A DNA stretch of 53,442 nucleotides, from the IMG/VR virus record IMGVR_UViG_3300048062_000147. One strand, given 5' to 3'. The translations under genes and the position numbers were made by a program. Source of the DNA: a virus. The notes under the pieces were generated by a model that searched no databases, was not told the DNA's origin, and was given only the letters and a program-made list of their open reading frames with translations. Shown in pieces: positions 1 through 40,200 of the stretch; positions within the stretch are counted from its first letter, which is position 1; the number at the start of each line of letters is the position of its first letter.

Positions 1-127
1 GCTCACCGAATGATCCAGTCAAAGCAACAGCAGTTGCAGATGCAGCAGCAGCTCCTGAACCAACACCTTCAGAATCAGAGATACCGTCGATTACCGCACG
101 GATAGATCCGTTCAACAATACAACGTC
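1..127. repeat. Exact 127-nt duplicate of 53316..53442 (closure overlap of a circular or terminally redundant genome)
   Basis: Base-by-base comparison of the window start with its end. All 127 nt are identical, and the duplication lies inside one continuous reading frame. Confidence 0.95.
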
Positions 128-16170: not shown

Positions 16171-17296
16171 ATATAGAGAGAGGTGTAAATAGCTGTTATA
16201 TTGTTAGGCTTGCCTAAACTAGAAGGAATGGAAGGTTTAGTTTGAGCTAAACCTTCTGTAACCCCCGTAAATATTAATTTGACTTTCTCCGAAAAAAGTT
16301 GTAACTTCGCTCTAGATTCCTCACGCAATCAGGATTCTTTCCACTTGAATCCTTCTTGCTTTATCTAATTACTCACCCTGTAGCTGGAGGGTCGTCGCCC
16401 CAAGCAGAGACCCGCTCAGCTACTTTGTGAGAGCGGCAAGAACTATCCCTACAGTAAACACCCCCAGATCCTGTCAGTTCGCACAGCTTTGAGTAGCTGT
16501 TTGCTCCTGCCAGTATCCTCCTTTCTCCTGCACGAAAACCTCCCCCGACTGGCTTGATCCTACTTAACAGCTTTATGTCCATTCAAAATCGCTCTAAACA
16601 GCTCATATACCCGTTAAAAAAGGGATGAGTAATGTTTAGGTGGGGGATAATATATAGTATAGGACGTTGGCGCACGCAATCCGAAGTGGAATCTGAAACC
16701 CCACCCCCTACAGATAAAGCATTGATTGTCAAAACTTTTAGCGTTTGCTATCTACAGTACTGGTTCAGCTATAGCTATGTAACTATCTGGCTTTCAGTCG
16801 GTTAGCTGATCCGGTGGAACAGACTAGTTGCCGGAGGTGTTCTGTCCATAGGTGGAACAATCCCCACCCCACCATACACCTCAACCCAACACACTCTCAC
16901 ACGCTCACACATCCACGCTCCTGCCGTTTCTCAGGGCTGATGGATACCAACCTTGGGGCAGTCCCTCACGTGCGCATAGGTCATACTATGGCAAGATTTA
17001 GATGCCTAGGTATTTACACTCAATTGTGAAAAAAAGTGTGTATAACCCTTGTGTAATCCAAATAGCTGTCGTACCATTGTAGTGTTGAAAGGGACAAAGC
17101 GCCGTAACGCTGACTCCGACTAGTTAGGTCTAGTGACGTTCTTTACTTATTGGATACTAAGTTATAATCAGTCTGATGAGGGGTAGCAATCTACTACCCT
17201 GAGTGCTTCGGCACTCGACCCCTGAGATGGGGCGAAACCACGGGATATGGGGAGCATATCAACTAATAACAGCGGAAGCGCTTCGGTGCTTCCGTT
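16171..17296 (+). ncRNA. Candidate large structured non-coding RNA / non-coding control region between the diverging arms
   Basis: About 1.15 kb without a credible ORF. By hand count, G+C is 100/180 at 16381-16560, against 18/60 in early gene sequence at 18361-18420. There are many local hairpins, including 16231-16256 (10 bp), 16331-16353, 16412-16436, 16481-16504, 16602-16629, 17180-17200, 17201-17216 (UUCG loop), 17219-17232, 17244-17260 and 17274-17293 (UUCG loop with a G-U pair valid only on the plus strand). The strand and the boundaries are inferred. Confidence 0.45.
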
Positions 17297-17313
17297 GGTT
17301 ACTGATAACTTAA
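17158..17313 (+). ncRNA. Hammerhead-ribozyme-like element (type I topology); predicted cleavage between U17300 and A17301
   Basis: Core C3-A9 is CTGATGA at 17173-17179, and G12-A14 is GAA at 17234-17236. Helix I pairs 17158-17172 with 17301-17312 (5+7 bp with a 3-nt bulge). Helix III pairs A17237-C-C-A17240 with T17296-G-G-T17299, including the A15.1-U16.1 pair. H17 is U17300. Helix II is non-canonical: a single G17180-C17233 pair closes a junction of three hairpins. Confidence 0.4.
17274..17313 (+). promoter_or_regulatory. Hairpin + 17-mer cassette 1
   Basis: Hairpin GGAAGCGC-UUCG-GUGCUUCC at 17274-17293, then a 3-nt spacer, then GGTTACTGATAACTTAA at 17297-17313. ATG 17326 is 12 nt downstream. 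No U-tract. Confidence 0.9.
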
Positions 17314-17325
17314 ATTATATGTCTT

Positions 17326-17529
17326 ATGAAGAATCCACTAGTAGATGTCAAGCCATTCGTATTCCGAGGTGATGTAATCGGAAAGGTATTCACCTTCGAT
17401 TTGGGCAACTACCTGAACTACGGAGTCATTGAGATAACCACCGACTTGAGCGGTGATATTGTAGATTACTCAGGTTGTGGTTACAACACGGCAAATACTC
17501 TGATTCGATGTGTGCATCTAACAGATTAG
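17326..17529 (+). CDS. Early small protein, unknown function
   Basis: 67-aa ORF between cassettes 1 and 2. Confidence 0.6.
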   Translation: MKNPLVDVKPFVFRGDVIGKVFTFDLGNYLNYGVIEITTDLSGDIVDYSGCGYNTANTLIRCVHLTD

Positions 17530-17540
17530 AATAGATTAAA

Positions 17541-17574
17541 GAAGGGCAACGCCCTTCGGTCACTGATAACTTAA
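17541..17574 (+). promoter_or_regulatory. Hairpin + 17-mer cassette 2 (C variant)
   Basis: Hairpin GAAGGGC-AAC-GCCCTTC at 17541-17557, abutting GGTCACTGATAACTTAA at 17558-17574. ATG 17587 is 12 nt downstream. Confidence 0.9.
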
Positions 17575-17586
17575 TACTATTGCTTT

Positions 17587-17757
17587 ATGACAACGCAACA
17601 AATCACCCCGAAACAAGCTAACGAATTACTCGATTGCATCCGTAGAGACCTCGACACCCTCATTGGATTGGGTGAGAGCTACGCACACTTTCAATCTGCT
17701 CAGGCTACCCACAAGTACCTGAAGAAAGCAAAGAAAGCCCTTGAGGGACTTTCTTGA
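17587..17757 (+). CDS. Early small protein (56 aa, below the ORF-track cutoff)
   Basis: MTTQQITPKQANELLDCIRRDLDTLIGLGESYAHFQSAQATHKYLKKAKKALEGLS. It fills the space between cassettes 2 and 3 exactly, with the standard 12-nt spacing. Confidence 0.6.
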   Translation: MTTQQITPKQANELLDCIRRDLDTLIGLGESYAHFQSAQATHKYLKKAKKALEGLS

Positions 17758-17766
17758 TTGACCCAA

Positions 17767-17798
17767 GCCTCCGATGGAGGCGGTTACTGATAACTTAA
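17767..17798 (+). promoter_or_regulatory. Hairpin + 17-mer cassette 3
   Basis: GCCTCC-GAT-GGAGGC at 17767-17781, abutting GGTTACTGATAACTTAA at 17782-17798. ATG 17811 is 12 nt downstream. Confidence 0.9.
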
Positions 17799-17810
17799 AA
17801 CTATTGCCTT

Positions 17811-18008
17811 ATGAACGCAAAAGAATTAATTGAGCAACTCACTCATCTAGCAAAGTCTAATGGTGTAGCACTAGAGAACATTGATGTTTACTACCGATTT
17901 GATTTTGATTCCGATATCGAAGATGTTAATTTCTTGTTCGAAGATTTATACGACCAAGAGACAAACAGCGTACTAGAAACCATAGTACTGACAACTAAAT
18001 CGGAATAA
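17811..18008 (+). CDS. Early small acidic protein
   Basis: 65-aa ORF, D/E-rich. Confidence 0.6.
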   Translation: MNAKELIEQLTHLAKSNGVALENIDVYYRFDFDSDIEDVNFLFEDLYDQETNSVLETIVLTTKSE

Positions 18009-18015
18009 CGATTAA

Positions 18016-18048
18016 GCCTCCTTCGGGAGGCGGTTACTGATAACTTAA
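18016..18048 (+). promoter_or_regulatory. Hairpin + 17-mer cassette 4
   Basis: GCCTCC-TTCG-GGAGGC at 18016-18031, abutting the 17-mer at 18032-18048. ATG 18060 is 11 nt downstream. Confidence 0.9.
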
Positions 18049-18059
18049 ACAAACGAATT

Positions 18060-18305
18060 ATGGACAACGTAAAAGAGCAATTGCTGTCAATGGAGATTGG
18101 TATCTACCAAGAAATCACATTCAGCAATGGTATACTTAAATCCACAAAAGAATTGTGCCGTATCGCAGAAGGCGAATGGGTAGTAGAATCTCATAGCTGT
18201 GGATGGTCTACAGCCTATATGAATCTAGATACAGCCGTAGCTTACCTAGAGGGAAAAATCAAGGGATACGAACTAAGATGGGAGGACAACGAAATCATCC
18301 TATAA
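18060..18305 (+). CDS. Early small protein
   Basis: 81-aa ORF. Confidence 0.6.
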   Translation: MDNVKEQLLSMEIGIYQEITFSNGILKSTKELCRIAEGEWVVESHSCGWSTAYMNLDTAVAYLEGKIKGYELRWEDNEIIL

Positions 18306-18310
18306 ACTAA

Positions 18311-18344
18311 GAGGTGCAATGCACCTCGGTCACTGATAACTTAA
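18311..18344 (+). promoter_or_regulatory. Hairpin + 17-mer cassette 5 (C variant)
   Basis: GAGGTGC-AAT-GCACCTC at 18311-18327, abutting GGTCACTGATAACTTAA at 18328-18344. ATG 18356 is 11 nt downstream. Confidence 0.9.
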
Positions 18345-18355
18345 TTAAATGCTTT

Positions 18356-18604
18356 ATGAAAAATCATTTCGAAGAAATTAAATTTCACATCTTACTTGCT
18401 GAATACACTTCAACGAGGATTGAAGAAATGTCTGCAAATCGGATATTCAATTCAGGTAAAGAAGAGGGTGAGGACTTTGAATTTATTTACTCTTTACAAG
18501 ATAACTACTTTGATAGAGTAATGAGATTGAGTGTAGGTCAATCTATGCCCTTTCTAACTAGCAGAGATGCATCTTGGTACTCTGTAATTGTTAGGGTAAA
18601 ATAA
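18356..18604 (+). CDS. Early small protein
   Basis: I moved the start to ATG 18356 (MKNHFEEIKF...). The track start at 18314 (GTG) would translate the cassette itself. Confidence 0.6.
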   Translation: MKNHFEEIKFHILLAEYTSTRIEEMSANRIFNSGKEEGEDFEFIYSLQDNYFDRVMRLSVGQSMPFLTSRDASWYSVIVRVK

Positions 18605-18614
18605 CAAGATTCAA

Positions 18615-18648
18615 GAAGGGCAACGCCCTTCGGTTACTGATAACTTAA
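18615..18648 (+). promoter_or_regulatory. Hairpin + 17-mer cassette 6
   Basis: GAAGGGC-AAC-GCCCTTC at 18615-18631, abutting the 17-mer at 18632-18648. ATG 18660 is 11 nt downstream. Confidence 0.9.
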
Positions 18649-18659
18649 AACCTTTTACA

Positions 18660-18854
18660 ATGGAAAAGCTAACAAACGAAATCATCGAACGCCTAGAATA
18701 CGTAGATGGAGATGGCGTTGAATTCGAGGTGTACCAAGATCCCGAAACCAACAAATTCTACCAAGTAGAGATTGAGATTGTGAGACACTTTGAATGTGCT
18801 GAAGAGGTGAGTGGGAACTCCTTTATTGATTTGGACAAGCTCATCGATTTTTAA
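18660..18854 (+). CDS. Early small acidic protein
   Basis: 64-aa ORF. Confidence 0.6.
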   Translation: MEKLTNEIIERLEYVDGDGVEFEVYQDPETNKFYQVEIEIVRHFECAEEVSGNSFIDLDKLIDF

Positions 18855-18861
18855 TGAGCAA

Positions 18862-18894
18862 CCCTCCTGATGGAGGGGGTTACTGATAACTTAA
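18862..18894 (+). promoter_or_regulatory. Hairpin + 17-mer cassette 7
   Basis: CCCTCC-TGAT-GGAGGG at 18862-18877, abutting the 17-mer at 18878-18894. ATG 18906 is 11 nt downstream. Confidence 0.9.
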
Positions 18895-18905
18895 ACAAAT
18901 GTATT

Positions 18906-19205
18906 ATGATGATTAATGCTAATGAGACTATGGTCTTTAACGATGTATTGATACACACAGCTAGAACTTGGGAGCGTATAAGGGTAGACCGAGAACATAA
19001 AGAAATGCCTTACGACAATATCGAGTCTTGCGACTGTATCGTATCTGTTGCTGGAGATATTTTTGAGTCCGAGCTGATTCAAAAGTTTCTAAAGTCTACT
19101 GCGAGAGAGCGTAGAGGATTTTGGGAAAGAGAAACCAAGGAAGGTTTCTCGGATGACTACATTGAGAACCTTGCACACGATAAGATATGCAATGACTACT
19201 TGTGA
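18906..19205 (+). CDS. Early small protein
   Basis: I moved the start to ATG 18906 (MMINANE...), which is in frame with the track ORF. Confidence 0.6.
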   Translation: MMINANETMVFNDVLIHTARTWERIRVDREHKEMPYDNIESCDCIVSVAGDIFESELIQKFLKSTARERRGFWERETKEGFSDDYIENLAHDKICNDYL

Positions 19206-19209
19206 TTAA

Positions 19210-19243
19210 GAGAGGCTAAGCCTCTCGGTTACTGATAACTTAA
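19210..19243 (+). promoter_or_regulatory. Hairpin + 17-mer cassette 8
   Basis: GAGAGGC-TAA-GCCTCTC at 19210-19226, abutting the 17-mer at 19227-19243. ATG 19256 is 12 nt downstream. Confidence 0.9.
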
Positions 19244-19255
19244 TTTTATTGAACT

Positions 19256-19477
19256 ATGCTTTACGCAATGTACTACCAACTAGGAAATACCATAACGTAC
19301 ATTATCTCAGGAGATAATTACGAGGACACCTACTACTACGAAATCGATGCCAACATCGATGATTGCAAGGTCATTGTATCGCCTTTCGATTGTGATGATT
19401 CACCACGATTTAGAGACTACATCAAGCACCTGATTGAACGTGCAACGCCAACCAGATTTCAAGTGGTGTACGAATAG
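19256..19477 (+). CDS. Early small protein
   Basis: 73-aa ORF. Confidence 0.6.
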   Translation: MLYAMYYQLGNTITYIISGDNYEDTYYYEIDANIDDCKVIVSPFDCDDSPRFRDYIKHLIERATPTRFQVVYE

Positions 19478-19482
19478 CAAAA

Positions 19483-19515
19483 GCCACCTTCGGGTGGCGG
19501 TTACTGATAACTTAA
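19483..19515 (+). promoter_or_regulatory. Hairpin + 17-mer cassette 9
   Basis: GCCACC-TTCG-GGTGGC at 19483-19498, abutting the 17-mer at 19499-19515. ATG 19526 is 10 nt downstream. Confidence 0.9.
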
Positions 19516-19525
19516 ATTGATGACT

Positions 19526-19894
19526 ATGAAAACTTTATTAGCTGTTATTGTAGCGCTGACCTTTGGGTCTTGCGCTCCAAATGTCTACGGAGATTTATAC
19601 GAGGTTACCAGCGTGGTAACTAAGCCGAACGAAGGACCTATCGAGGTCTACTCATCTACTAGAGATTTTGTCCGCACCGATATCAAAATGACCAACGACA
19701 GCATCTTCCTTATGGAGGCTGTAGGTCAGGACAACAAATTGGTGGTGACTCAATCATTCGATTACTTGAGTGTAGTGGACTTCAAAGAGGGCAATAATGA
19801 AGAAGGTGAGCCATTCGAACTCTCACTAATTAATGCCGACTCAACGTGTGTTACTACGTACTTGTTGTACGACTTGAATAACCACTACGAGTAG
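19526..19894 (+). CDS. Early lipoprotein candidate
   Basis: I place the start at ATG 19526 (MKTLLAVIVALTFGSCAPN...): a signal peptide with Cys at position 17. Confidence 0.55.
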   Translation: MKTLLAVIVALTFGSCAPNVYGDLYEVTSVVTKPNEGPIEVYSSTRDFVRTDIKMTNDSIFLMEAVGQDNKLVVTQSFDYLSVVDFKEGNNEEGEPFELSLINADSTCVTTYLLYDLNNHYE

Positions 19895-19900
19895 TCTAAG

Positions 19901-19934
19901 AGGGGCTGTTGCCCCTTGGTTACTGATAACTTAA
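19901..19934 (+). promoter_or_regulatory. Hairpin + 17-mer cassette 10
   Basis: AGGGGC-TGTT-GCCCCT at 19901-19916, then a 1-nt spacer and the 17-mer at 19918-19934. ATG 19946 is 11 nt downstream. Confidence 0.9.
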
Positions 19935-19945
19935 TTAAACGTATT

Positions 19946-20212
19946 ATGGACTACCCATTCAAAGAGGGTGATACTTACTTCACCCTAGAAGGAATAACCT
20001 TCGAAGAGCTTCAGCTGTTAAACAGCAATGGAGAGAACCCACAAATCTTCACAGTGGTAGAGAGCACTTGGGACTTCGTGAGCGAAGAGATGCACGATGA
20101 AGACCCAAACAAAGTGTACTTCAAAACACGTGAAGAGGCAGAATCTCGCAACATCACATTTGATGAACTTGCAGAGGCTGTTGAGGCTAGTGCTAAAAAA
20201 ATCCCTCGTTGA
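19946..20212 (+). CDS. Early small acidic protein
   Basis: I moved the start to ATG 19946 (MDYPFKEGD...). The stop codon lies inside the hairpin of cassette 11. Confidence 0.6.
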   Translation: MDYPFKEGDTYFTLEGITFEELQLLNSNGENPQIFTVVESTWDFVSEEMHDEDPNKVYFKTREEAESRNITFDELAEAVEASAKKIPR

Positions 20213-20234
20213 GGGATGGTTACTGATAACTTAA
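20201..20234 (+). promoter_or_regulatory. Hairpin + 17-mer cassette 11
   Basis: ATCCCTC-GTT-GAGGGAT at 20201-20217, abutting the 17-mer at 20218-20234. ATG 20246 is 11 nt downstream. Confidence 0.9.
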
Positions 20235-20245
20235 ACAAATGTATT

Positions 20246-20407
20246 ATGACTGCGAATGATTTTGCATCTATCTGCGCCAACGCTGAGGTATCTGCGTTTG
20301 TGGCGCTAGAGAACAAACGTGTTGTTGAGCTCCTGAAGAAGGACAAGAAGCAACCATCAATTAATAACCAACTAATCCTTTCTGGATTGTTACAAACAGA
20401 ATTTTGA
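20246..20407 (+). CDS. Early small protein (53 aa)
   Basis: I moved the start to ATG 20246 (MTANDFASICANAEV...). Confidence 0.55.
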   Translation: MTANDFASICANAEVSAFVALENKRVVELLKKDKKQPSINNQLILSGLLQTEF

Positions 20408-20408
20408 T

Positions 20409-20762
20409 ATGAACAAAGTAGATTTTATACAGCTGTTACAAGCGCACGACTGGACCTACCAGTACAGCGATGACCCCAGCAAGTACAAACGAGGTCAGGC
20501 TCAACGTGAAGCCATCAACAAGGCTAGAAAGGAGCTTGGCGTAGAGGGTGATGCCCTCTACGAAACCTACAGCAAAGTACCTGAGGCTAGAATCGTTATC
20601 CCGGTGAAAGCCGAACGCACTATGCCCAAGGTAATGTGCCGTAACACTGGTCGTATGGGGCACTTAATCGATAAGAGTCCGAACGGATTTATGGAGGTTA
20701 AATTCAGCGACGGATACCGCACGGAATTCCTACGCCAGACCGACATCATCAAGCTAGGCTAA
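20409..20762 (+). CDS. Early protein, unknown function
   Basis: 117-aa ORF that starts 1 nt after the upstream stop. It has no cassette of its own. Confidence 0.6.
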   Translation: MNKVDFIQLLQAHDWTYQYSDDPSKYKRGQAQREAINKARKELGVEGDALYETYSKVPEARIVIPVKAERTMPKVMCRNTGRMGHLIDKSPNGFMEVKFSDGYRTEFLRQTDIIKLG

Positions 20763-20786
20763 GTCTAGCGGTTACTGATAACTTAA
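20753..20786 (+). promoter_or_regulatory. Hairpin + 17-mer cassette 12 (weak hairpin)
   Basis: GCTAG-N7-CTAGC at 20753-20769, abutting the 17-mer at 20770-20786. ATG 20798 is 11 nt downstream. Confidence 0.85.
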
Positions 20787-20797
20787 ATTAATGTTTT

Positions 20798-21094
20798 ATG
20801 ACAAAAGACACAATGACCATTTTTTATGAGATTGAAAGAGAGGTTAAGCCTTTCTTTGACCAGGCAAGAATCAACCTATATGGTGATGTAGCAAAGACAT
20901 CGTTAAAAGGAACACAGCGAGATGAATACATCTTTGATGGGTATGTGGAGTATTTTAAATCAATACCCAAAGATAAAGTTGGGAAACGAACCTATGTATT
21001 TGGCAAGGTGATTAAGTATGGTAGGATTCTCAGCAAAAAGCATAACCATCCATACAATGTATTCGAGATGTGCAACCTTGTGACTAAGGAGTAA
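20798..21094 (+). CDS. Early protein, unknown function
   Basis: 98-aa ORF. Confidence 0.6.
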   Translation: MTKDTMTIFYEIEREVKPFFDQARINLYGDVAKTSLKGTQRDEYIFDGYVEYFKSIPKDKVGKRTYVFGKVIKYGRILSKKHNHPYNVFEMCNLVTKE

Positions 21095-21106
21095 AAACTA
21101 AACAAA

Positions 21107-21140
21107 GCCCCTCGCTGAGGGGCGGTTACTGATAACTTAA
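21107..21140 (+). promoter_or_regulatory. Hairpin + 17-mer cassette 13
   Basis: GCCCCTC-GCT-GAGGGGC at 21107-21123, abutting the 17-mer at 21124-21140. ATG 21153 is 12 nt downstream. Confidence 0.9.
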
Positions 21141-21152
21141 ATTTATAATCTT

Positions 21153-21620
21153 ATGGGATTAGATATGTACTTGCACAAGAAAACATTTGTGCGTAATTGG
21201 GACCATATGAAAGAGTCCGAAAGAAATCACGTGTCCGTAAAGGGTGCTGAATCAAAACACATCGTAGGCGCTAGAGTATCGGAGATTACCGAGCAAATAG
21301 CCTATTGGAGAAAGGCAAACCACATACACAATTGGTTTGTTGAGAACGTTCAGAATGGCGAAGATGACTGCGGTGAATACTACCTCACCGAAGAGCACGT
21401 TAAGTCGCTTAACAAAGCTTGTAAGAAGGTCTTGGATGACAATTCTTTAGCTGAAGAGCTGTTACCTACAGCTAGTGGTTTCTTCTTTGGGGGCGTAGAG
21501 TACGACGAGTACTACTTTGAATCAGTGTTAGACACTTGGAATATAACAAGTGCCTTGATTCGGGAGATGAAAAGTTGGAATAGCGTTAGAACTGACCTTT
21601 CTTACCAAGCTTCTTGGTAG
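21153..21620 (+). CDS. Conserved-looking phage protein (MGLDMYL...YWRKANHIHNWF motif), unknown function
   Basis: 155-aa ORF. Confidence 0.65.
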   Translation: MGLDMYLHKKTFVRNWDHMKESERNHVSVKGAESKHIVGARVSEITEQIAYWRKANHIHNWFVENVQNGEDDCGEYYLTEEHVKSLNKACKKVLDDNSLAEELLPTASGFFFGGVEYDEYYFESVLDTWNITSALIREMKSWNSVRTDLSYQASW

Positions 21621-21629
21621 AAAATTAAG

Positions 21630-21662
21630 GAGGGCATTGCCCTCTGGTTACTGATAACTTAA
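21630..21662 (+). promoter_or_regulatory. Hairpin + 17-mer cassette 14 (last copy)
   Basis: GAGGGC-ATT-GCCCTC at 21630-21644, then a 1-nt spacer and the 17-mer at 21646-21662. ATG 21673 is 10 nt downstream. Confidence 0.9.
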
Positions 21663-21672
21663 TTAAATGACT

Positions 21673-24507: not shown

Positions 24508-24780
24508 TCAGATATTTATCTACTGGGAACAATGAGAGAAACACATCCAATATTAGACAGCAAAGAATTCAAGTCGCTGCCTTGGCGCAAACGTATTATC
24601 GTTAGGCTCAAGGTGGCTTTCGCTGAATTCATATCAATGCTTTAACGAGGTATAACATAATGTCGGGGAGGAGTATTTTTTGGTTTGACATTTGCCTTCG
24701 TGGTGAAGGCGCCTCCCCACATTTACCTGACTAAACGTGTACCAAAGTGGTACACGAGTAACCTTCAAAACAAAAGAGAG

Positions 24781-25335
24781 ATGAATTGGCTAAAACGATT
24801 ATTCACCAGGGAAAAGAAAGAAAAATGGACAGCTACTTACTGTTCGGATAACTACGAAGTTAGTAACCTAGGAAGGGTGCGGAGTCTAGACAGGCTTACC
24901 ACTGACGGAAGGCTTTATAAAGGAAGACTAAAGAAGTTAAGCCTATGTAAAACTGGCTACCTTAAAGTGAATGTCACCATTGATGGGAAAAATAAAGTAT
25001 ATAACGTCCATCAGTTAGTATACTGCTCCTTTAACAAGGGTGAGCTGAGTGGCTATAAATATGTAGTAGATCATATTAACGGTGACCCTTTAGACAATAG
25101 ATTAGATAACCTTCAATTTGTTTCGCAATGGGAAAATGTTATGAAGGGGAGAGCAAACAAGTACAACTTACCTAAGTACATTACAGCTTGTCCTTACCAC
25201 TACGACAGGAGTAAGTTGATGTATTGTTACATACCTGTCATTAACAAAAAGCAGCGTGTTCTTAAATCGTCTATAGATCTACAAAAAGTTTTGAAGTTTA
25301 AAGAGGAGCATCAAAAAAGTTTGTCTATCGAATAG
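24781..25335 (+). CDS. HNH homing endonuclease (NUMOD4 + HNH_3 type)
   Basis: YEVSNLGRVRS (NUMOD4-like) and VDHINGDPLDNRLDNLQ (HNH). I place the start at ATG 24781, because the track's upstream extension is a structured leader. Confidence 0.9.
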   Translation: MNWLKRLFTREKKEKWTATYCSDNYEVSNLGRVRSLDRLTTDGRLYKGRLKKLSLCKTGYLKVNVTIDGKNKVYNVHQLVYCSFNKGELSGYKYVVDHINGDPLDNRLDNLQFVSQWENVMKGRANKYNLPKYITACPYHYDRSKLMYCYIPVINKKQRVLKSSIDLQKVLKFKEEHQKSLSIE

Positions 25336-25338
25336 TAG

Positions 25339-25446
25339 AAACCTTTAACACCAAAGAGAAATGAAAAAAGTAAGGGTATAACCTCACGGAAATTGAATTG
25401 AGTCAAGTTATAACCTTACAAAACCTTTAACACCAAAGAGAAATGA
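25339..25446 (+). repeat. 26-nt perfect direct repeat AAACCTTTAACACCAAAGAGAAATGA (25339-25364 and 25421-25446)
   Basis: Both copies were read directly. Each ends in an ATG. The first opens a 6-codon ORF and the second a 28-codon ORF. Confidence 0.9.
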
Positions 25447-25529
25447 TAGAGCTAAAATGGTTTGTGGTTTTTTTGACTATAGCATTGAGTATGATATTCA
25501 TATACCTCACAGGAAAGGATGATAATTAA
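25443..25529 (+). CDS. Possible 28-aa membrane peptide
   Basis: MIELKWFVVFLTIALSMIFIYLTGKDDN, starting at the ATG of the second repeat copy. Confidence 0.3.
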   Translation: MIELKWFVVFLTIALSMIFIYLTGKDDN

Positions 25530-34046: not shown

Positions 34047-34271
34047 TTATTTTTGTTTAGCAAATTTTTCTAATCCAGAAACACCTAATGATCCAAGGGT
34101 CACTATAACAAAGCTGTTATATGTAAACTCGTTGATGTGTAGGTCTTTCCCAAACGCACCAGTGATCACATCGGCAAGCATCACTAGTACCATTACAGCA
34201 AAGGAGAGAAAACCTATAATGGTTTTCTCGTTCCAATTGTTGTCGTCCTTAAATATATCTGTGAACTTCAT
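34047..34271 (-). CDS. Holin candidate
   Basis: 74 aa with two TM helices and a charged C-terminus, immediately upstream of the endolysin. Confidence 0.6.
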   Translation of the reverse strand: MKFTDIFKDDNNWNEKTIIGFLSFAVMVLVMLADVITGAFGKDLHINEFTYNSFVIVTLGSLGVSGLEKFAKQK

Positions 34272-37200
34272 TATATATCTTCAATCTTTAGCTGTATGTA
34301 TTGCTTGTTGAAATCGGCAACCAATTTGTATCTAGCCTTTTCAAGCTGGTCCAGTCTAGCTTCTTGCTTTAGTGGATCCTTGATGCCTGCCGCCTCGTCC
34401 TCAAGCTTACTAATTTTTTTCAAACGAGATTTGTAATCCTTACCCATCTTATGCATTTTATATATCTTCTTGGCATCTGCCCCTTCGATTATGCCTGCCT
34501 TTACTTCCTTGAACTTTTGGTTAACATCAACAGTTCTTTCATAGAAGCTGTTTATATTTGAATACTCGTATGGCTGTCCGTTGAAGGTACGTACAAAAGG
34601 AATCTGTCTAGATTCTAGCTCGTCCCAGTTACCAGTCAAAATCTTATCTATAACATTTGCAGATCTTGTCACAAACTTACCCGCACCACCAGTAATAGTT
34701 TCAACTACAAAATCAGCCTTATCTGGATTTACATCTATGTATCCTGATCTATACGCAGACCCTCCAGTAACTTCGTTCAACCATTTAGCGATTGACTGTG
34801 TCCATCTGTAACCACTTTCTTTTCCTAATTGAGACTCCGGCTTTGGTGCAGGGTCGTATATGAAATTCTCGTTATATATCTTCTGTCCAAAATAATCTTC
34901 GTTAAGACCTATAGCCACTGGGATCTGAGTAGCAGTAGGCAAAATAAATTTAATAAAGAATGAAGAAGCATCTTTACTGGTAGGAAAGTTAATCGGGGAG
35001 AAAGAACCTATCGCAGTCTGCCCTATTGCCGATGCTACTTCTCCCGGAGTCTTAGTTCCATTCAATCCTTCAGATATGTAAGAACCTGCTACATAGAATA
35101 CGTTCGACCCATATGGCAAAGGTATCTTCCAATAGTCCTTGCCGTTAGGCTTCATAATGATTATGTTTCTTTCTTTTTCGAATTCCGGTATCTTAGAGAA
35201 GAAAGATTCTTCATCCTCATCTTCATCGCTCATCCATTCATTGAATACCGACATAACACCGCCCATAACAAACAAACCTACAGCCATCTTCTGCGCTCTG
35301 GTAAGGTGATACTTTCTATTCCCCTCGCTGTCTATTTTGTATGCAGGCTTTAAGCTACGTAACAATCTAGAGCTACCCTGAACAGAGGCATTGAAGAACA
35401 GATATAGGGTGTTACCCATCTGTCCTAATGAACCAGTTTTGTTAAAGTTAACTGTCAAGTTCTTTCCGAGCTCGGCGGCTTTGGCTCTAGGGGTGCCAGC
35501 CTTCCGAGCATTGACATATGCTGATAAACGAACTGCATTCTCTACAGAAGAGTTTACACGCTCAACTAAGTTAGCTGCAGCTTTGATTGCATTATCTCCT
35601 TTACCTCTTATCAACTTCTCAATGTCCTTGTTTATTTGATCTGCAGGCTTACTATAGAACCATTCAGTCTTAGCGCCGTCCTCCAAGAACTCCTTGTAGT
35701 ACTGATCCATATCCTTGTTTCTGGAGGCTTCCTTCTTGCCAGTCCATCCACCCTCAACAGCGAATATAGTTTTAAGTGCAGGGTACACATCTTTAACTGT
35801 CTTGCCTACAATGTTCTTATCTTTTATAAGTCCATCGTCTAGATCCTGTTCAGCATACAAGTTCAATACAGCTGTCTGAATATCTCTAGAGAAGTTACGG
35901 AATACGAAATCAGGATCGTATGTGGTAATCAAGCTACTAAGCATTCTGTTGAACCCACCTATATATTTAGTGAACCATTCAGCCTTAACTACATTAGCTC
36001 CTCTAAGAACATTAGCTAGATCAGCATCCTTAAATCTGACAAACTTGTAGTCACCATCAATACGGACAGATACCATACTCTCGTCAAGAAGATAATCGGA
36101 AACAGATTTAGCAACTGCTATCACCTTACCATCACGCATTGAGGTCTTATAATCTTTAGACGTTTCTGGATCTACAATTTCGTAAATATCTTTGTTCGGG
36201 TTGTTCTTAGCGAGTTCATAGAACCTTTTCATAACGTCGTTCTTAGCACCTCTAATAATTGTAGTGGTGTTAGAGATGATAGCCTGAGTCAAAGGAGAGT
36301 CTGCTTTTCTTTGACGTCCCTTAGCTCTTCTCTCTCTGGCACGTACCTCTAGTTTGCCACCGCCTTCAATAAACTCTGAGCCGAACTGCTCATCTGCGAA
36401 ACCTCTAAGCGGTACGTAGTTTTTATACGTAGCGTTAAATGCATCTATAGTGCCCTGAGATTCTAGACCAGACTCAACCAATCTATTTCTAGTATCTGCT
36501 ATCAACTCTCTGATAGCTGTTACTGCTGTGCGAATCTTCGGAGACAGCTGAGACACATCTGGAGATGTTAGATTGAGATCGTACTTAGCCAATATCTTTC
36601 TAGCTTCTACATCAGTCATACCAGAACCATCCTTCACTAACGCATTGTCATAGAAGAATCTGTAAGGTGTTGATCCATAGATCAATAGAAGGTCAGTCAA
36701 GTCAGACGACTTCAGATCTCTCTTGTTGGCTTCAATCTCTAGGTACTGTTCTTTAGAGATGCCTAGTAGCTGAGCGACATCTGTCGGTGTCATACCGCTT
36801 GTCTTTCTCATTCTAGATAAGTTCTTGCCAATATCTGTAGAGATAGTGCGAAGATATCTGTTTCGCTCCTGAGCGTGCATAGCATACAGCAACTCGTTAA
36901 CATCGTCTACTGACAGACCAGACTTCTTGATCTTGCTAGTGATGTCTTTTATTCTGTCTTCTGTTTTGTCTAGCTCGCTCTTAGCTTTACCGTGCATCAA
37001 TACTTCCGCATTACGGAAGTCTTGGTCTAGACCAACAGGCTTACCTGTAGCGTACTCAATATCTTCTTGGATGACAATGATGTCTCTGTAGCTGTCTTGT
37101 ATTCTACGTCTAGTAAGATCTACGAAACGCTCAAAAGCATTTCTTTCTCTTGACTTCCAAGTATCTGAGGCGGCAACATCTTGATCCACCTTATTGTCTA

Positions 37201-40200
37201 TCTGAGATCTAAACACACCTTCTTTATTGTCCTCAATGGCAGAGTATGTTTCCTTAGCGTTCTCTTCTTGTTTTACTTGGTCTTCAATCTGGAATCGTAC
37301 CGTTTCCCCCTTAGAGTTCTTGTACTCCTGAAGCTCCATAGGTTCAACCTTAGCTACCTTTGGAATAGCTCCAGCACTTGACGTAACATTAGATACAGCA
37401 AATTTAGGATCGGCTTTAGTGGATACCTCTGGACCAGACATATTGTACTTAGTGTACTCGTTAGTCAGGTCATAAGACTTGTAGTATTTGTTTGGCTGTA
37501 AGATACTTTTGATTACAGCTTTAACAGTCCATCCGAATGATGGGTGGTGATCTGGATCTCCCGGCTTAGTCTTAGATACCTCAAAGGTATTAGGATCAAA
37601 CTCTACAAAGCTCATAATCTCACCACCTTCAACACCTTGATTAAGAGGGTCTGCAATAAGATTGTAGAACTGATTCAAGTTCTTAATACCGATAGCATTT
37701 TGGAATTCTTTACTCGCAGCGATCTTCTGGTTAAGAGCTTTACGTAAGTTAGGAGAATAGTTGTTCTCAGCGTCAAGAAGCTCCACTAGTTTCATAGGGT
37801 TCTTCTTAAACGAGTTTAGATTTTTAAGTCTAGAGTTATTCTTTTCGTTGAACGCCTTGAATGCTTTGGAACCTTCTTTAGACTTGATGGCTTCGTTGAA
37901 CACTTCCATCAATCTAGCTTTGCTCATAATCTTGTTATCAAGCACTGCCTTTACCAGCTCCTCAAAGATATGGTGCTGGAACTGCCAAGAATCTGTCAAG
38001 GTTCCTGAGTGTGGGGCAAACAGATCAGCATTACCTTCTTTGGCGTTTCTGATAAACCCTTCTGCCTGTGACTTAGAGTTGAACGCAGCTAGGTTGGAAA
38101 CCTCGCCGAGTTCTTTACCATTGCGCTCAAGCATTAGGGGCACATAGTTTCTACCACCCAACAGCTCAATAGAAATACCATTACCTAGTTCGGTTGTACC
38201 CGCACTAGTATAATCATACATATTGGTAACGAAGTTTCTACCTTCTAGCTCATTGATGTCTATGTCAGTAACAAACTTGTTGACGAATCCTCTAGCGTCA
38301 TCAGACGCTTTAGGAGCGTCGATGACCTCTATCTGTTCTTTAGGTATGGAAATAGTGCCTACCTCTCCAGATTCGCCCTGCTCTTCAATCTGAATTTCCT
38401 TCTCTTGTAGGTATGGGTTTGCAACAAACTCATCAGGCAACAAGCCTACTTTCTGAGGGGCAAATTTCATTGTAGCGTAAGCCTTGTCTGTAAACTCCTG
38501 TGCCTCTTCAAGCTTCCCTTCCTTACGAAGGGCTCTACCTTTGTCTCTGAGTTTAAATGCTTCGTCGTTAACTCCAGAGAAGTTTACATAGCTGTTCTGA
38601 CCTCTAGTCTCAGCTGTCAATGCTTTACGTGCTAGTGGGCTGTACATTCTAGAGTGTACATCCCAGGCGTTCTCCTCTCCGATAGGACCGAAACCGTTAC
38701 CTCTCTCTGCGTGTCCAAAGAAGTCGTGTACAAATCTAAAGACATCATTTAATAATAGTGTTCGACCATTTACATCTTTGTATTTTGTCTCTGCTAGAAG
38801 CGGGTTGTCTTTTCTTTGATCAGCTGTGATGCCTGCATCACCGAACCCTGAGTCTGTACTGAAGATTCGCATATTCTTGTTCTTGCGAAGATCTTCGATC
38901 AACTCATTACTGTTGTTGTACGGCTCGTTATTATTTACCTCTACTTTGTATCCACCCTTAATAATAGCCTCGTACTGCTCTATAGTTTCATCAGCCATAG
39001 CCTTATATGCAGCAGCAACCTCTGGACTGGTAGGGTTGTTCTTCATCGCTGTATAGGCGTCAGAGATCCTTTTTGCGAGCTTTTTGTCAATCTTTCTAAT
39101 CAGATTACCATCTGTGTGTTTGAGCCCCTTAGACTCCATATAAGCGATAGCTATAGTGCGTGCATCCTTGAGTGGTTCATTGGCTATTCTAGAACCTACC
39201 GGAACGTCTAACTGTAACCTAGAAGCCTCATAAGGATTCTTGCTGTTCACAACAGCTGCTGCCTCTGGGTTTATCTCAACTGTTAGCTCGGTACGTCCTT
39301 CAAGTGCATCTAAGAATCCATTGACAAAGTCAAACGCTTCCTCCTTAGACTTAATAGCTGTGTCGTCTATCTTGAGTCCTAGTACATCGTTAAGTATTCT
39401 AACAACAGCTTTTCTGATTCGCTCAATAGTTGACAGAGACATCTTCTGTACATCAATGCCGTCCTTGACCTCTGCAACAAACTCAGCTAAGAACTCCTCG
39501 GCAATCACTGCATCCTCAAGAGTTAGACCCTTGCCGTACACCTCTCTGTTGAGGTATTCTTTTTGGAAAGCTGTTAGCTTATTGGCTAACGCTTTCTCTA
39601 CCTTGGTACCTTTACTCAATTGTAATCTCACCTCATTAGTGAATCGCACAATCTGTTTTGAGTTTAGATCAACAGCTTTAACATAAGCGTGCATCATCTC
39701 GTGAGACAAGCTGCCTAGGCTAGCTTTGTCTGCATTTACTACTACAGCAGATGTGCCATCCTCAAGTGTTCTGAATTGAGCTCTTGACGAAGACCCTGTA
39801 ACGTTCTGCATATCAGCATCGCTAACTACATATACATTTACAGGAGCAGCACCAATAGACGATAACGCACTATTGAAACTCTCAATCATCTGTGGTGCCT
39901 TATCACTAAGATTGATAGCATCCACAGAAGCAGTTTCTAGCTGTTGTCTATCAGCGCTTGGTTCTTCAGCGACAGCTGCTTCTTCCACTGCAGCCTGATC
40001 AACCATTACTTCAACACCATATGTTTTCTTGCCTCTTCTACCAGTTGTTTCGGTAGATAATACAAGTAGGCTTGGATCCTCCACAGACAATCTTTCCTGA
40101 AGGGCTTCCACTGCTGCCATTGCCTCTTCTTCTGTGGCGTAGGTCATTTCCTCTTCAGGGAATATTCTTCGCCCTGTAGTAGGATCTTCTGCAACAGCTT

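What the first reader, a model, noticed from the sequence alone, without database searches (positions are those of the whole stretch)
17274..21662. Fourteen hairpin + GGT(T/C)ACTGATAACTTAA cassettes, one per small early gene
Seen directly:
- There are 14 copies within 4.4 kb.
- The 17-mer is invariant except at position 4.
- Each copy ends 10-12 nt before an ATG.
- Each copy is preceded, usually with no spacer, by a G+C-rich hairpin of 5-8 bp.
- The hairpin sequence differs between copies while pairing is preserved. Loops are UUCG in three copies, plus AAC, GAU, UAA and others. That pattern suggests selection on structure rather than sequence.
- None of these hairpins is followed by a U-tract. 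The genome's convincing terminators (14341, 32813, 52334) all have one.
- The 17-mer does not match the TAnnTTTG box used ahead of the late genes. Its best segment, TAACTTAA, matches 6 of 8.
- The motif core GTTA-CTGA-TAAC is a 4+4 dyad.

Established analogies: PeSL cassettes (stem-loop plus early promoter) flank shuffled accessory genes in T4-type phages, and T7 early polycistronic RNA is cut at intergenic hairpins by RNase III.

Inference, three competing roles:
1. RNA processing or stability sites, linked to the hammerhead-like element.
2. A phage-specific early promoter or operator, with the dyad bound by one of the HTH proteins.
3. Recombination hot-spots that shuffle single-gene modules.
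Basis: partly seen in the sequence, partly recalled or inferred. Interest (0 to 1): 0.75.

Follow-up and report, generated by a model that had tools for sequence, protein, structure and literature searches.

The report
One hammerhead ribozyme, fourteen cleavage sites
The fourteen repeated 17-base motifs in front of this phage's small early genes match, base for base, the two binding arms of a single hammerhead ribozyme encoded just upstream, so one catalytic RNA probably cuts the long early transcript into single-gene messages, an arrangement I found no description of in nature.

Summary
There are 14 exact copies of GGT(T/C)ACTGATAACTTAA on the + strand (0.03 expected by chance). Each follows a G+C-rich hairpin of variable sequence and lies 10-12 nt before a start codon.

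The 17-mer is best explained as the substrate strand of a hammerhead ribozyme. The catalytic strand occurs once, at 17158-17240, just 5' of the array.
- It has the full core: CUGAUGA, a G-C pair closing stem II, and GAAA.
- Its 3' arm ACC pairs with motif bases 1-3.
- Its 5' arm UAAGUUAU-AAU-CAGU pairs with bases 5-16.
- Base 4, the only variable base, is the unpaired cleavage nucleotide. It is U, C or A and never G in 210 distinct cassettes from relatives.

A blind scan for any hammerhead core with repeated arm-defined targets returns only this core and exactly these 14 sites. About 55 related contigs each carry one core, always upstream of the cassettes. Four ribozyme helices covary. Conservation of the substrate's 3' half follows the complementarity of the arm.

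Cleavage itself is untested, and Rfam models do not detect the element. The promoter or operator reading is not supported. Gene shuffling at cassettes is real but looks like a consequence. This is a new variant of a known ribozyme class, of high interest.

The parts
17158..17172 (+). 5' substrate-binding arm of the ribozyme (enzyme strand of stem I). UAAGUUAU (17158-17165) pairs with motif bases 9-16. AAU (17166-17168) is a bulge. CAGU (17169-17172) pairs with motif bases 5-8.
   Evidence: Read directly from the sequence. MFE folds pair it with the first 17-mer. Cofolding pairs it with all 14. The proximal 6 pairs are kept in 22 distinct relatives, with AU changed to GU in 5.
17173..17179 (+). 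Hammerhead core strand C3-U4-G5-A6-U7-G8-A9 (CUGAUGA).
   Evidence: Invariant in relatives that were found independently of the core. TCAGTCTGANGA..GAAACC occurs once in the window and in 0 of 100 shuffles.
17180..17233 (+). Stem II domain. G10.1 (17180) pairs with C11.1 (17233) and stacks on hp3 (CCCC/GGGG, 17219-17232, loop UGAGAU). Two side hairpins are inserted on the 5' strand: hp1 (17181-17199) and hp2 (17201-17216).
   Evidence: Covariation: hp1 has 5 of 6 pairs and hp2 5 of 6 pairs with changes on both sides, and hp3 has 1 of 4 (CG to UA). All cells are paired.
17234..17240 (+). Core G12-A13-A14, followed by the enzyme strand of stem III: A15.1-C-C-(A). This pairs with motif bases U3, G2, G1, and with a preceding U where there is one.
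   Evidence: Read directly from the sequence. AU, CG and CG pairs are present in 22 of 22 relatives.
17244..17260 (+). hp4, a hairpin inside the stem III loop of the cis arrangement. Its loop GGGAG covaries with the loop of hp1 as a 3-bp kissing contact.
   Evidence: 4 of 6 stem pairs covary. The loop-loop contact is paired in 100% of cells, with 2 covarying pairs.
17272..17313 (+). Cassette 1 (hairpin plus 17-mer), the cis substrate. Predicted cleavage between 17300 and 17301. Gene 17326-17529.
17541..17574 (+). Cassette 2. Base 4 is C. Predicted cleavage 17561|17562. Gene 17587-17757.
17767..17798 (+). Cassette 3. Predicted cleavage 17785|17786. Gene 17811-18008.
18016..18048 (+). Cassette 4. 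Predicted cleavage 18035|18036. Gene 18060-18305.
18311..18344 (+). Cassette 5. Base 4 is C. Predicted cleavage 18331|18332. Gene 18356-18604.
18615..18648 (+). Cassette 6. Predicted cleavage 18635|18636. Gene 18660-18854.
18862..18894 (+). Cassette 7. Predicted cleavage 18881|18882. Gene 18906-19205.
19210..19243 (+). Cassette 8. Predicted cleavage 19230|19231. Gene 19256-19477.
19483..19515 (+). Cassette 9. Predicted cleavage 19502|19503. Gene 19520 or 19526 to 19894.
19900..19934 (+). Cassette 10. Predicted cleavage 19921|19922. Gene 19946-20212.
20201..20234 (+). Cassette 11. Predicted cleavage 20221|20222. Two genes follow: 20246-20407 and 20409-20762.
20753..20786 (+). Cassette 12. Predicted cleavage 20773|20774. 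Gene 20798-21094.
21107..21140 (+). Cassette 13. Predicted cleavage 21127|21128. Gene 21153-21620.
21629..21662 (+). Cassette 14. Predicted cleavage 21649|21650. It heads the long replication and recombination operon, which starts at 21667 or 21673.

Best explanation
The cassettes are cleavage sites for one hammerhead ribozyme.

The catalytic (enzyme) strand is encoded once, at 17158-17240, at the 5' end of the rightward early transcript. Each 17-mer is a substrate strand.
- Bases G1-G2-U3 pair with A15.1-C-C after the core GAAA. This gives a 3-bp stem III, stacked end-to-end on the cassette's own hairpin.
- Base 4 is the unpaired cleavage nucleotide H17.
- Bases 5-16 pair with the arm just 5' of CUGAUGA. 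This gives stem I, 4 + 8 bp with a 3-nt bulge on the enzyme side.

The predicted cut is GGU(U/C)^ACUGAUAACUUAA. The first cassette is cut in cis. The other 13 are cut by the same core, either by long-range pairing within the polycistronic RNA or in trans by the released 5' ribozyme fragment.

Each cut would leave the upstream message ending in a protective hairpin plus GGUN with a 2',3'-cyclic phosphate. The downstream message would start with a 5'-OH and a uniform A/U-rich leader of 23-25 nt before its AUG. Every gene that carries a cassette is then a self-sufficient module, which would also explain why the modules shuffle among relatives.

Shown: the anatomy, the complementarity, the conservation and covariation patterns, and the co-occurrence of core and cassettes. 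Inferred: that transcription runs through the array, that cleavage occurs at all, that it occurs at sites 2-14, and the effects on stability and translation.
For: 1. The core is complete: CUGAUGA at 17173-17179, G17180 pairing with C17233, GAAA at 17234-17237, A15.1-U16.1 and N1.1-N2.1 pairs. This follows the criteria quoted from Perreault 2011. The pattern occurs once in the window and in 0 of 100 shuffles.
2. The arms account for motif bases 1-3 and 5-16, that is, everything except the one variable base. Cofolding with each of the 14 cassettes pairs exactly these positions, with ddG of about -10 kcal/mol against -4 for shuffled 17-mers. MFE folds of the cis region form stem I in the window, L155 and L010.
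3. Base 4 is T in 178, C in 30, A in 2 and G in 0 of 210 distinct cassettes. The seed used left this base free.
4. A blind scan took any CUGANGA..GAAA, derived the target from its own arms, and required at least 3 hits. It returned only core 17173, with exactly the 14 cassettes. It found nothing in about 100 other loci.
5. There is one core per related contig (8 viral and 48 metagenome loci). All 277 cassette-like matches lie downstream on the same strand, with none upstream or antisense.
6. The ribozyme body covaries: 97.5% of cells are paired against 31-37% when partners are slid, and 15 pairs change on both sides.
7. Arm and substrate co-vary across lineages. Where the arm contains AAGTTA, substrate bases 11-17 are 96-100% conserved (n=100). 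Where it does not, base 13 falls to 56% and bases 12 and 15-17 to 78-86% (n=110). The same holds within a single ribozyme-body lineage for cassettes other than the first.
8. The hairpin abuts G1 with 0 nt spacer in 141 of 152 distinct non-first cassettes, although there are 79 different hairpin sequences.
9. No + strand terminator with a T-run lies between 17.1 and 21.7 kb.
10. Two relatives carry an Rfam-confirmed Pistol ribozyme; in L155 it lies between two ORFs of the early-gene strand upstream of the core.
11. Complete cis hammerheads flanking single prophage genes are documented and active (PMC3088659).
Against: - No experiment exists; cleavage is inferred.
- Rfam hammerhead models give no hit, even at E up to 10. 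The likely cause is roughly 40 nt inserted in stem II and roughly 55 nt in stem III, but a model-based membership test was not passed.
- Stem III is only 3 bp for cassettes 2-14.
- After self-cleavage the ribozyme keeps its own UGGUU tail, which would compete for stem III.
- Stem I and stem III show no true compensatory changes. They are invariant except for AU to GU, so support for the intermolecular helices rests on the extent of conservation, not on classic covariation.
- Lineages whose arm lacks AAGTTA would have only a 6-bp stem I, yet they still keep cassettes.
- The arm-substrate duplex energy (-9.2 kcal/mol) is not the best in the genome: 182 of 53,420 + strand windows are as good or better.
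- The promoter of the ribozyme transcript was not found.
- Conservation of base 17 and of the semi-conserved ATTAAATGCTTT before the ATG is not explained by pairing.
- Core positions in the 48 metagenome hits were fixed by the search pattern.
Confidence: 0.72

Rival explanations
1. Only the first cassette is a ribozyme substrate, cut by an ordinary cis hammerhead. The other 13 copies are duplicates of the same leader that spread by recombination. They are conserved for another reason, such as translation initiation or binding of a phage protein to the RNA or DNA.
For: - Cleavage at a distance or in trans by a natural small ribozyme has no established precedent; the 2019 review still describes a search for such RNAs.
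- Stem III is only 3 bp for the other sites.
- The fixed 10-12 nt distance to the ATG and the semi-conserved ATTAAATGCTTT suggest a role in translation that pairing does not explain.
- Bases 1-10 stay invariant even in lineages with a short arm, although those positions were fixed by the seed.
Against: - Conservation of the 3' half of non-first cassettes follows the complementarity of the arm, also within one ribozyme-body lineage. A leader conserved for translation would not track the arm.
- Base 4 varies exactly as a cleavage nucleotide should at all sites.
- The zero-spacer hairpin is a feature of the non-first cassettes, and it fits stacking on a short stem III.
- Every cassette lies downstream of the core on the same strand in 60 loci.
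Confidence: 0.13
2. Each cassette is a terminator-promoter unit of the PeSL type. The hairpin stops or pauses transcription, and the 17-mer is an early promoter or operator recognised by a phage-specific factor or an unusual host sigma factor.
For: - The motif is invariant over about 17 bp, as phage-specific promoters are.
- There is one per gene, at a fixed short distance from the ATG.
- Gene modules between cassettes are shuffled among relatives, as at PeSL.
- The 2908-aa putative virion protein carries an HTH domain.
Against: - There is no match to the host TAnnTTTG box that is obvious before late genes and three + strand genes in the same genome, and sigma-70-like sites are not in excess.
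- None of the 19 larger ORFs scanned matched an RNA polymerase or sigma-factor family, and no ORF of 35 aa or more carries a crAss-type D-x-D-x-D catalytic motif apart from one 65-aa early ORF.
- The hairpins lack a U-tract.
- The reading does not explain why the motif's borders and its one variable base coincide with the arms and cleavage site of the adjacent hammerhead core, or why substrate conservation follows the arm.
Confidence: 0.07
3. The 5' RNA pairs with every 17-mer as an antisense regulator, masking or exposing the leaders without cutting them. The hammerhead core would be a relic.
For: A 12-bp complementarity to all 14 leaders. Catalysis has not been shown.
Against: - All eleven core nucleotides and the three core-adjacent pairs are intact in relatives found independently of the core, while neighbouring stems vary.
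- GGU pairing to ACC and an unpaired non-G base 4 are needed for cleavage, not for antisense pairing.
Confidence: 0.05

Closest known systems
Clustered cis hammerhead ribozymes flanking single genes in prophages (Perreault et al. 2011, PMC3088659)
   Same: Same ribozyme class and same proposed job: cutting a long phage transcript into single-gene mRNAs. Gene content between the sites also varies.
   Different: There, every site carries its own complete self-cleaving ribozyme. Here, one catalytic strand serves 14 sites, each consisting only of a 17-nt substrate strand plus a hairpin.
Discontinuous hammerhead in mammalian Clec2 3' UTRs (Martick et al. 2008, cited in PMC6765202)
   Same: The enzyme and substrate strands of a natural hammerhead are separated by a long stretch of the same RNA.
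   Different: That is one enzyme strand with one substrate strand, in a eukaryotic 3' UTR. Here the ratio is 1:14, with separations of up to 4.4 kb, in a phage operon.
Engineered trans-cleaving hammerheads with binding arms and tertiary stabilising motifs (e.g. PMC3064770, PMC1199579)
   Same: Same design logic: two arms flanking the core define an NUH target, with a bulged or extended stem I.
   Different: Those are man-made. This one is natural, has a 3-bp stem III that appears to rely on stacking onto a substrate hairpin, and has a branched stem II domain with a loop-loop contact to hp4.
PeSL cassettes of T4-type phages (stem-loop plus early promoter; recalled from memory, Arbiol et al. 2010)
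   Same: Short repeated cassettes flank small accessory early genes, and the genes are shuffled between relatives.
   Different: PeSL carries a sigma-70 early promoter and acts at the DNA and transcription level. No promoter consensus is present here, and the repeat matches ribozyme arms.
RNase III processing sites of the T7 early polycistronic RNA (established knowledge)
   Same: Intergenic processing leaves a 3' hairpin on the upstream message.
   Different: RNase III needs about 20 bp of irregular duplex and cuts within it. Here the stems are 6-7 bp, and the predicted cut is 4 nt 3' of the stem, made by RNA.
RNase P RNA (established knowledge)
   Same: A natural ribozyme that acts on many substrates.
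   Different: RNase P hydrolyses, recognises shape rather than sequence, and is a large ribonucleoprotein. This is a small nucleolytic ribozyme guided by base pairing.

Membership tests
Hammerhead ribozyme | Core strand C3-U4-G5-A6-N7-G8-A9 | tested here: met
   CUGAUGA at 17173-17179. It is invariant in 6 relatives found through the 17-mer or through Erf, not through the core.
Hammerhead ribozyme | Core G12-A13-A14 followed by A15.1 | tested here: met
   GAAA at 17234-17237.
Hammerhead ribozyme | Stem II closed by a 10.1-11.1 pair next to the core | tested here: met
   G17180-C17233 is present in 22 of 22 sequences and stacks on CCCC/GGGG (hp3), which has one covarying pair. Two hairpins inserted between 10.1 and 10.2 are unusual. 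Stems II of 1-2 bp are documented.
Hammerhead ribozyme | Stem III with an A15.1-U16.1 pair | tested here: met
   A17237-U3, C-G2 and C-G1 in all 14 cassettes and in 22 of 22 relatives. A fourth A-U pair is present in 17 of 22 first cassettes. Only 3 bp for most non-first sites.
Hammerhead ribozyme | The cleavage nucleotide H17 is A, C or U, never G, and is unpaired | tested here: met
   Motif base 4 is T in 12 and C in 2 copies in the window. It is T in 178, C in 30, A in 2 and G in 0 of 210 distinct cassettes. It is the only variable base of the motif.
Hammerhead ribozyme | Stem I starting with a 1.1-2.1 pair | tested here: met
   A5-U17172 and then 3 further pairs, a 3-nt bulge, and 8 pairs. 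The six proximal pairs are kept in 22 of 22 relatives.
Hammerhead ribozyme | Match to the Rfam hammerhead covariance models | tested here: not met
   No hit at the gathering score or at E up to 10. The likely cause is the roughly 40-nt and 55-nt insertions in stems II and III, but this was not checked with a trimmed construct.
Hammerhead ribozyme | Site-specific self-cleavage giving 2',3'-cyclic phosphate and 5'-OH ends | not testable with these tools
   Needs in vitro transcription or end-specific RNA-seq.
Terminator-promoter cassettes (PeSL type) | A recognisable promoter consensus for the host or a phage RNA polymerase | tested here: not met
   No TAnnTTTG or TTTG boxes in the cassettes, while they are clear elsewhere in the genome. 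Sigma-70-like sites are not in excess. No polymerase or sigma gene was found.
Terminator-promoter cassettes (PeSL type) | A stem-loop acting as an intrinsic terminator (hairpin plus U-tract) | tested here: not met
   No + strand T-run after any of the 14 hairpins.
Terminator-promoter cassettes (PeSL type) | Cassettes flank accessory genes that are shuffled between relatives | tested here: met
   Gene order between cassettes is mosaic in 14 loci.
RNase III processing sites (T7 type) | About 20 bp of irregular duplex containing the cut | tested here: not met
   Stems are 6-10 bp with 3-4 nt loops.
Natural multiple-target (trans or long-range) small ribozyme | One catalytic strand cuts several separate substrate sites | not testable with these tools
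   Indirect support only: one core with 14 matching sites, and arm-substrate co-variation at non-first sites.

The most novel reading that the evidence does not exclude
A natural 'one enzyme, many substrates' hammerhead. A single catalytic RNA strand, released or tethered at the 5' end of a phage early transcript, recognises a 16-nt guide-matched site in front of every early gene. It cuts all 14, acting as a sequence-guided, multiple-turnover RNA endonuclease with no protein. The substrate hairpins supply most of stem III by stacking, so each gene needs only about 35-40 nt to be processed. New genes become expressible simply by carrying the cassette.
Probability: 0.6. Interest if true: 0.93.

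Novelty: new variant of a known kind. Interest (0 to 1): 0.88.

Why it matters
Apart from RNase P, natural small ribozymes are known as self-cleavers. Whether genomes encode small ribozymes that cut other sites has been an open search (review PMC6765202).

This system would make that question directly testable, with about 160 nt of ribozyme and 40-nt substrates. It would give a natural model for guide-arm target recognition. It also points to a new structural solution: a 3-bp stem III stacked on a substrate hairpin, and a branched stem II domain locked to hp4 by kissing loops.

For phage biology, it would explain how a Bacteroidota phage that has no RNA polymerase of its own turns one early transcript into many uniform, stabilised, single-gene messages. 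It would also explain why its small early genes behave as freely exchangeable modules.

For annotation, it shows that substrate-only ribozyme sites are invisible to covariance-model scans. The simple scan used here (core, then arms, then repeated targets) could be run over all viral contigs.

Tried and rejected
- **Phage-specific promoter.** I looked for an RNA polymerase or sigma factor.
  - The 2908-aa protein (34271-42997) has LPD38, HTH and HExxH domains. It has no D-x-D-x-D catalytic motif and no PDB sequence match.
  - No ORF other than one 65-aa early ORF carries a D[hydrophobic]DxD motif.
  - The middle operon encodes Erf, an exonuclease, HNH endonucleases, a primase-helicase and RusA, with no transcription proteins.
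  - phi14:2 early transcripts have no common motif, so no known crAss-type early promoter applies.
- **Host regulatory motif.** A scan of 185,579 genomes gave only single chance matches with no cassette context.
- **Single matches in other viral contigs.** These lie inside a baseplate-like gene and another coding sequence, so they are chance.
- **Erf relatives at about 60% identity.** They lack cassettes. The repeat in L164 is a 15-nt tandem array.
- **MW202828.1 (TerL 47% identical).** It has a different repeat, a 16-bp palindrome that also occurs inside ORFs, and no matching core.
- **Sister clade with TerL 66-70% identical.** It has no one-to-many hammerhead and no Rfam ribozymes.
- **Ranking the arm by duplex energy alone.** This was not decisive.
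- **A looser, arm-free core pattern.** It found no new arm variants, so classic compensatory covariation of stems I and III could not be obtained.
- **Cultured phages.** None carries the element.
- **The dyad as an internal RNA hairpin or dimer operator.** Variants break it without compensation.

Full report
**Observation.** The pattern GGTYACTGATAACTTAA occurs 14 times, all on the + strand, between 17297 and 21662. Shuffles give 0.03 expected.
- Only base 4 varies: it is C at 17558 and 18328.
- Each copy follows a G+C-rich hairpin of 6-10 bp with a 3-4 nt loop. The hairpin sequence differs from copy to copy.
- The hairpin touches the motif with no spacer in 13 of 14 copies.
- The gene's ATG lies 10-12 nt after the motif.
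- No hairpin has a T-run on the + strand.
- Two small corrections apply. The 14 cassettes serve 15 ORFs, because 20246-20407 and 20409-20762 share one. The stop codon of ORF 10 lies in hairpin 11.

**Context.**
- The window is a complete, circularly permuted contig of 53.3 kb with a 127-nt terminal overlap.
- It is a podovirus-like genome. It has a crAss-type muzzle protein, a 2908-aa polyvalent protein, a portal and a large terminase.
- The nearest cultured relatives, at 42-47% TerL identity, infect Flavobacterium and Cellulophaga.
- Genes left of about 16.2 kb and right of 32.9 kb are on the - strand. The cassettes open the + strand block, which continues into Erf, an exonuclease, HNH endonucleases, a primase-helicase and RusA.
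- No RNA polymerase or sigma factor was found.
- Host-type TAnnTTTG boxes are plain before late genes and before three + strand genes. The cassettes do not resemble them.

**The key finding.** I aligned the region upstream of the first cassette in six relatives that had been found through the 17-mer or through Erf. CUGAUGAG and CGAAACCACG were invariant, flanked by hairpins that change by compensatory substitutions. Read as a hammerhead, the element is as follows.
- CUGAUGA (17173-17179) is the core strand C3-A9.
- G17180 and C17233 form the 10.1-11.1 pair. This pair stacks on CCCC/GGGG (hp3, loop UGAGAU). Two hairpins (hp1, hp2) are inserted on the 5' strand of stem II.
- GAAA (17234-17237) supplies G12-A14 and A15.1.
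- The next bases, CC(A), are complementary to G2, G1 (and a preceding U) of the 17-mer, with A15.1 pairing to U3.
- The 15 nt before CUGAUGA read UAAGUUAU-AAU-CAGU. CAGU pairs with motif bases 5-8, and UAAGUUAU pairs with bases 9-16.
- So every base of the motif from 1 to 16 is paired to an arm of the ribozyme, except base 4.
- Base 4 sits where the unpaired cleavage nucleotide H17 must be, and it is the only base that varies.
- The predicted cut is GGU(U/C)^ACUGAUAACUUAA.

**Tests of the model.**
1. The combined pattern TCAGTCTGANGA-N45-75-GAAACC occurs once in the window and in none of 100 shuffles.
2. MFE folds of the cis region form stem I with the first 17-mer in the window, L155 and L010. 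Cofolding the enzyme strand with each of the 14 cassettes pairs substrate bases 1-3 and 5-16 every time. The ddG is about -10 kcal/mol, against about -4 for shuffled motifs.
3. I ran a blind scan with no knowledge of the motif. It took every CUGANGA...GAAA with a closing pair, derived the target NNU-H-rc(arm) from its own flanks, and asked for at least three hits. It returned one candidate in the whole window on both strands: core 17173, with exactly the 14 cassettes. The same scan found nothing in about 100 other loci, including a sister clade and MW202828.1.
4. The core pattern occurs once per related contig, in 8 viral and 48 metagenome loci. These give 45 distinct versions. All 277 cassette-like matches in 60 loci lie downstream of the core on the same strand.
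5. On 22 distinct ribozymes, 97.5% of cells in the proposed helices are standard pairs, against 31-37% when partners are slid. Fifteen pairs have changes on both sides, in hp1, hp2, hp3 and hp4. Stem I (proximal part) and stem III do not vary, except for AU to GU in five sequences.
6. Base 4 is T in 178, C in 30, A in 2 and G in 0 of 210 distinct cassettes collected with a seed that left this base free.
7. Ribozyme arms come in two kinds.
   - Where the arm contains AAGTTA, substrate bases 11-17 are 96-100% conserved (n=100).
   - Where it does not (GGAAAWWAAATCAGT), base 13 drops to 56%, and bases 12 and 15-17 to 78-86% (n=110).
   - The same contrast holds for non-first cassettes within one ribozyme-body lineage. 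For example, with body CTAGGTC, 9 of 9 cassettes keep the canonical 3' half with an AAGTTA arm, against 8 of 25 canonical 17-mers without it.
   - This is the main evidence that the arm 'reads' cassettes other than the first.
8. Of 157 distinct non-first cassettes, 152 have a hairpin of at least 5 bp, and 141 of these abut G1 directly. There are 79 different hairpin sequences. That is what a 3-bp stem III needing a stacking partner would select for. After cleavage the same hairpin would sit at the 3' end of the upstream message.

**Mechanism proposed.** The steps are marked as shown or inferred.
- Shown: one enzyme strand, 14 matching substrate strands, their geometry and their co-evolution.
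- Inferred: rightward transcription from a promoter that I could not locate runs through the ribozyme and the array. No + strand terminator lies between them.
- Inferred: the first site is cut in cis. Here stem III is ACCA/UGGU, closing a loop that holds hp4 and hairpin 1.
- Inferred: the other 13 sites are cut by the same core, either within the same long RNA or in trans by the released 5' fragment.
- Inferred products: messages that end in a hairpin plus GGUN>p, and messages that begin with 5'-OH-ACUGAUAACUUAA followed by 10-12 nt and the AUG.
- Not explained by pairing: base 17, the semi-conserved ATTAAATGCTTT, and the fixed distance to the ATG. These probably belong to translation initiation in a host that does not use Shine-Dalgarno pairing. 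That is inference from general knowledge of Bacteroidota.

**Weak points.**
- Nothing has been tested at the bench.
- Rfam finds no hammerhead here, even at E up to 10, so membership rests on the explicit consensus criteria, not on a model score.
- Stem III is 3 bp for most sites.
- The ribozyme's own 3' tail would compete for stem III after self-cleavage.
- The intermolecular helices show no classic compensatory changes, and a looser search found no new arm variants.
- Lineages with a short arm would have only 6 bp of stem I.
- The arm is not the energetically best partner of the motif in the genome.
- Stems II of one or two pairs and weak stems III do occur in active natural hammerheads.

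**Rivals.**
- *Only site 1 is cut, and the other copies are leaders kept for another reason.* This remains possible, at about 0.13. It does not explain the arm-linked conservation of non-first cassettes.
- *Terminator-promoter cassettes.* This has no promoter consensus, no polymerase and no U-tracts, and it leaves the coincidence with the ribozyme arms unexplained. I put it at about 0.07.
- *Antisense pairing without cleavage.* This does not explain an intact catalytic core. I put it at about 0.05.
- *Recombination.* Gene order between cassettes is strongly mosaic among 14 loci, and the phage encodes Erf and an exonuclease. Shuffling at the repeats is therefore real, but it follows from the repeats rather than explaining their sequence.

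**Comparison with known systems.**
- Complete cis hammerheads flank single genes in prophages, and they were proposed and partly shown to process polycistronic RNA (PMC3088659).
- A discontinuous hammerhead exists in Clec2 3' UTRs. The 2019 review says it fuelled the search for genomic trans-cleaving ribozymes (PMC6765202).
- Engineered trans-cleaving hammerheads use the same arm logic.
- In six full-text searches I found no description of a natural hammerhead with one catalytic strand and many substrate-only sites.
- No cultured phage carries the element.
- I therefore rate it as a new variant of a known kind.

**Verdict.** The promoter or operator hypothesis is not supported. Confidence in the one-ribozyme, fourteen-site model is about 0.72. 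Interest is 0.88.

Noticed in passing
L155:3764-3828 and L010:11167-11231 (relatives); absent from the window: Pistol ribozyme (Rfam RF02679, 70.6 and 54.9 bits), 1-1.4 kb upstream of the hammerhead core. In L155 it lies between two + strand ORFs. This phage group uses a second class of self-cleaving RNA in the same transcript region.
   Followed up: partly
window 17187-17193 (loop of hp1) and 17250-17254 (loop of hp4): The two loops covary as a 3-bp kissing contact: UCU with AGA or GGA, UCC with GGA, and UUC with GAA. Pairing holds in 100% of 22 sequences, with 2 covarying pairs. This would lock the stem II domain to the stem III side of the enzyme strand. Slid controls are fairly high (86-94%), so this is only suggestive.
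   Followed up: partly
window 17135-17153: The block CGTTCTTTACTTATTGG (TTTGACATTATGG in other lineages) is conserved just 5' of the ribozyme arm. In some MFE folds it pairs with CUGAUGAG. It could be an inactive alternative fold or a -35-like promoter box. A start site placed by the TATAAT inside the arm would remove stem I, so it is unlikely to be the promoter.
   Followed up: no
L194 (MW202828.1 43000-60850), e.g. 746, 1542, 1809, 2597, 2887, 4654, 5930, 6875: A distant relative (TerL 47% identical) has 14 copies of the perfect 16-bp palindrome GTGTCGTTAACGACAC in its early region. Most lie 17-45 nt before small-gene ATGs, but several are inside ORFs. It looks like a DNA-level protein site, and no hammerhead core matches it.
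   Followed up: partly
window 45255(-), 16155(-), 21915(+), 29518(+); also 51410, 15415, 13913, 8663, 6215, 3616, 1647 (-): Host-type -7 boxes (TAnnTTTG). At the first four positions the final G is only 3-4 nt from the ATG, which implies leaderless or nearly leaderless mRNAs.
   Followed up: no
window 24759-24793, 25339-25373, 25421-25455: A second repeated leader, AAACCTTTAACACCAAAGAGAAATGA, precedes three + strand ORF starts near the HNH endonuclease gene (family D10).
   Followed up: no
window 16200-17130: About 0.9 kb between the divergent gene blocks has no convincing ORF. It contains C-rich patches, and small hairpins at 17084-17150 that are conserved in the window-type relatives and partly in L155 but absent from L156 and L010. 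The early promoter, and possibly the origin, may lie here.
   Followed up: no
window 34271-42997 (-) and 45262-49893 (-): A 2908-aa polyvalent protein, which has LPD38, an XRE-type HTH at residues 2057-2114, an HEMMH zincin motif near residue 1100 and an acidic repeat region. Next to it lies a 1543-aa crAss-type muzzle protein. No polymerase motif was found.
   Followed up: partly
L028 320-416 (relative IMGVR_UViG_3300010299_000006): Two 17-mers lie only 80 nt apart with no gene between them, and the second lacks the usual hairpin. This looks like the scar of a deleted gene module.
   Followed up: no
window cassette hairpins, e.g. 17541-17557, 18311-18327, 20201-20217, 21107-21123: The 5' flank of the hairpins is A-rich. 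On the - strand they therefore read as a hairpin plus T-run, and the scan calls them terminator-like. They might also stop antisense read-through from the leftward late operon.
   Followed up: no
window 1-127 and 53316-53442: An identical 127-nt terminal repeat. The window is a circularly closed assembly of a genome of about 53.3 kb.
   Followed up: yes
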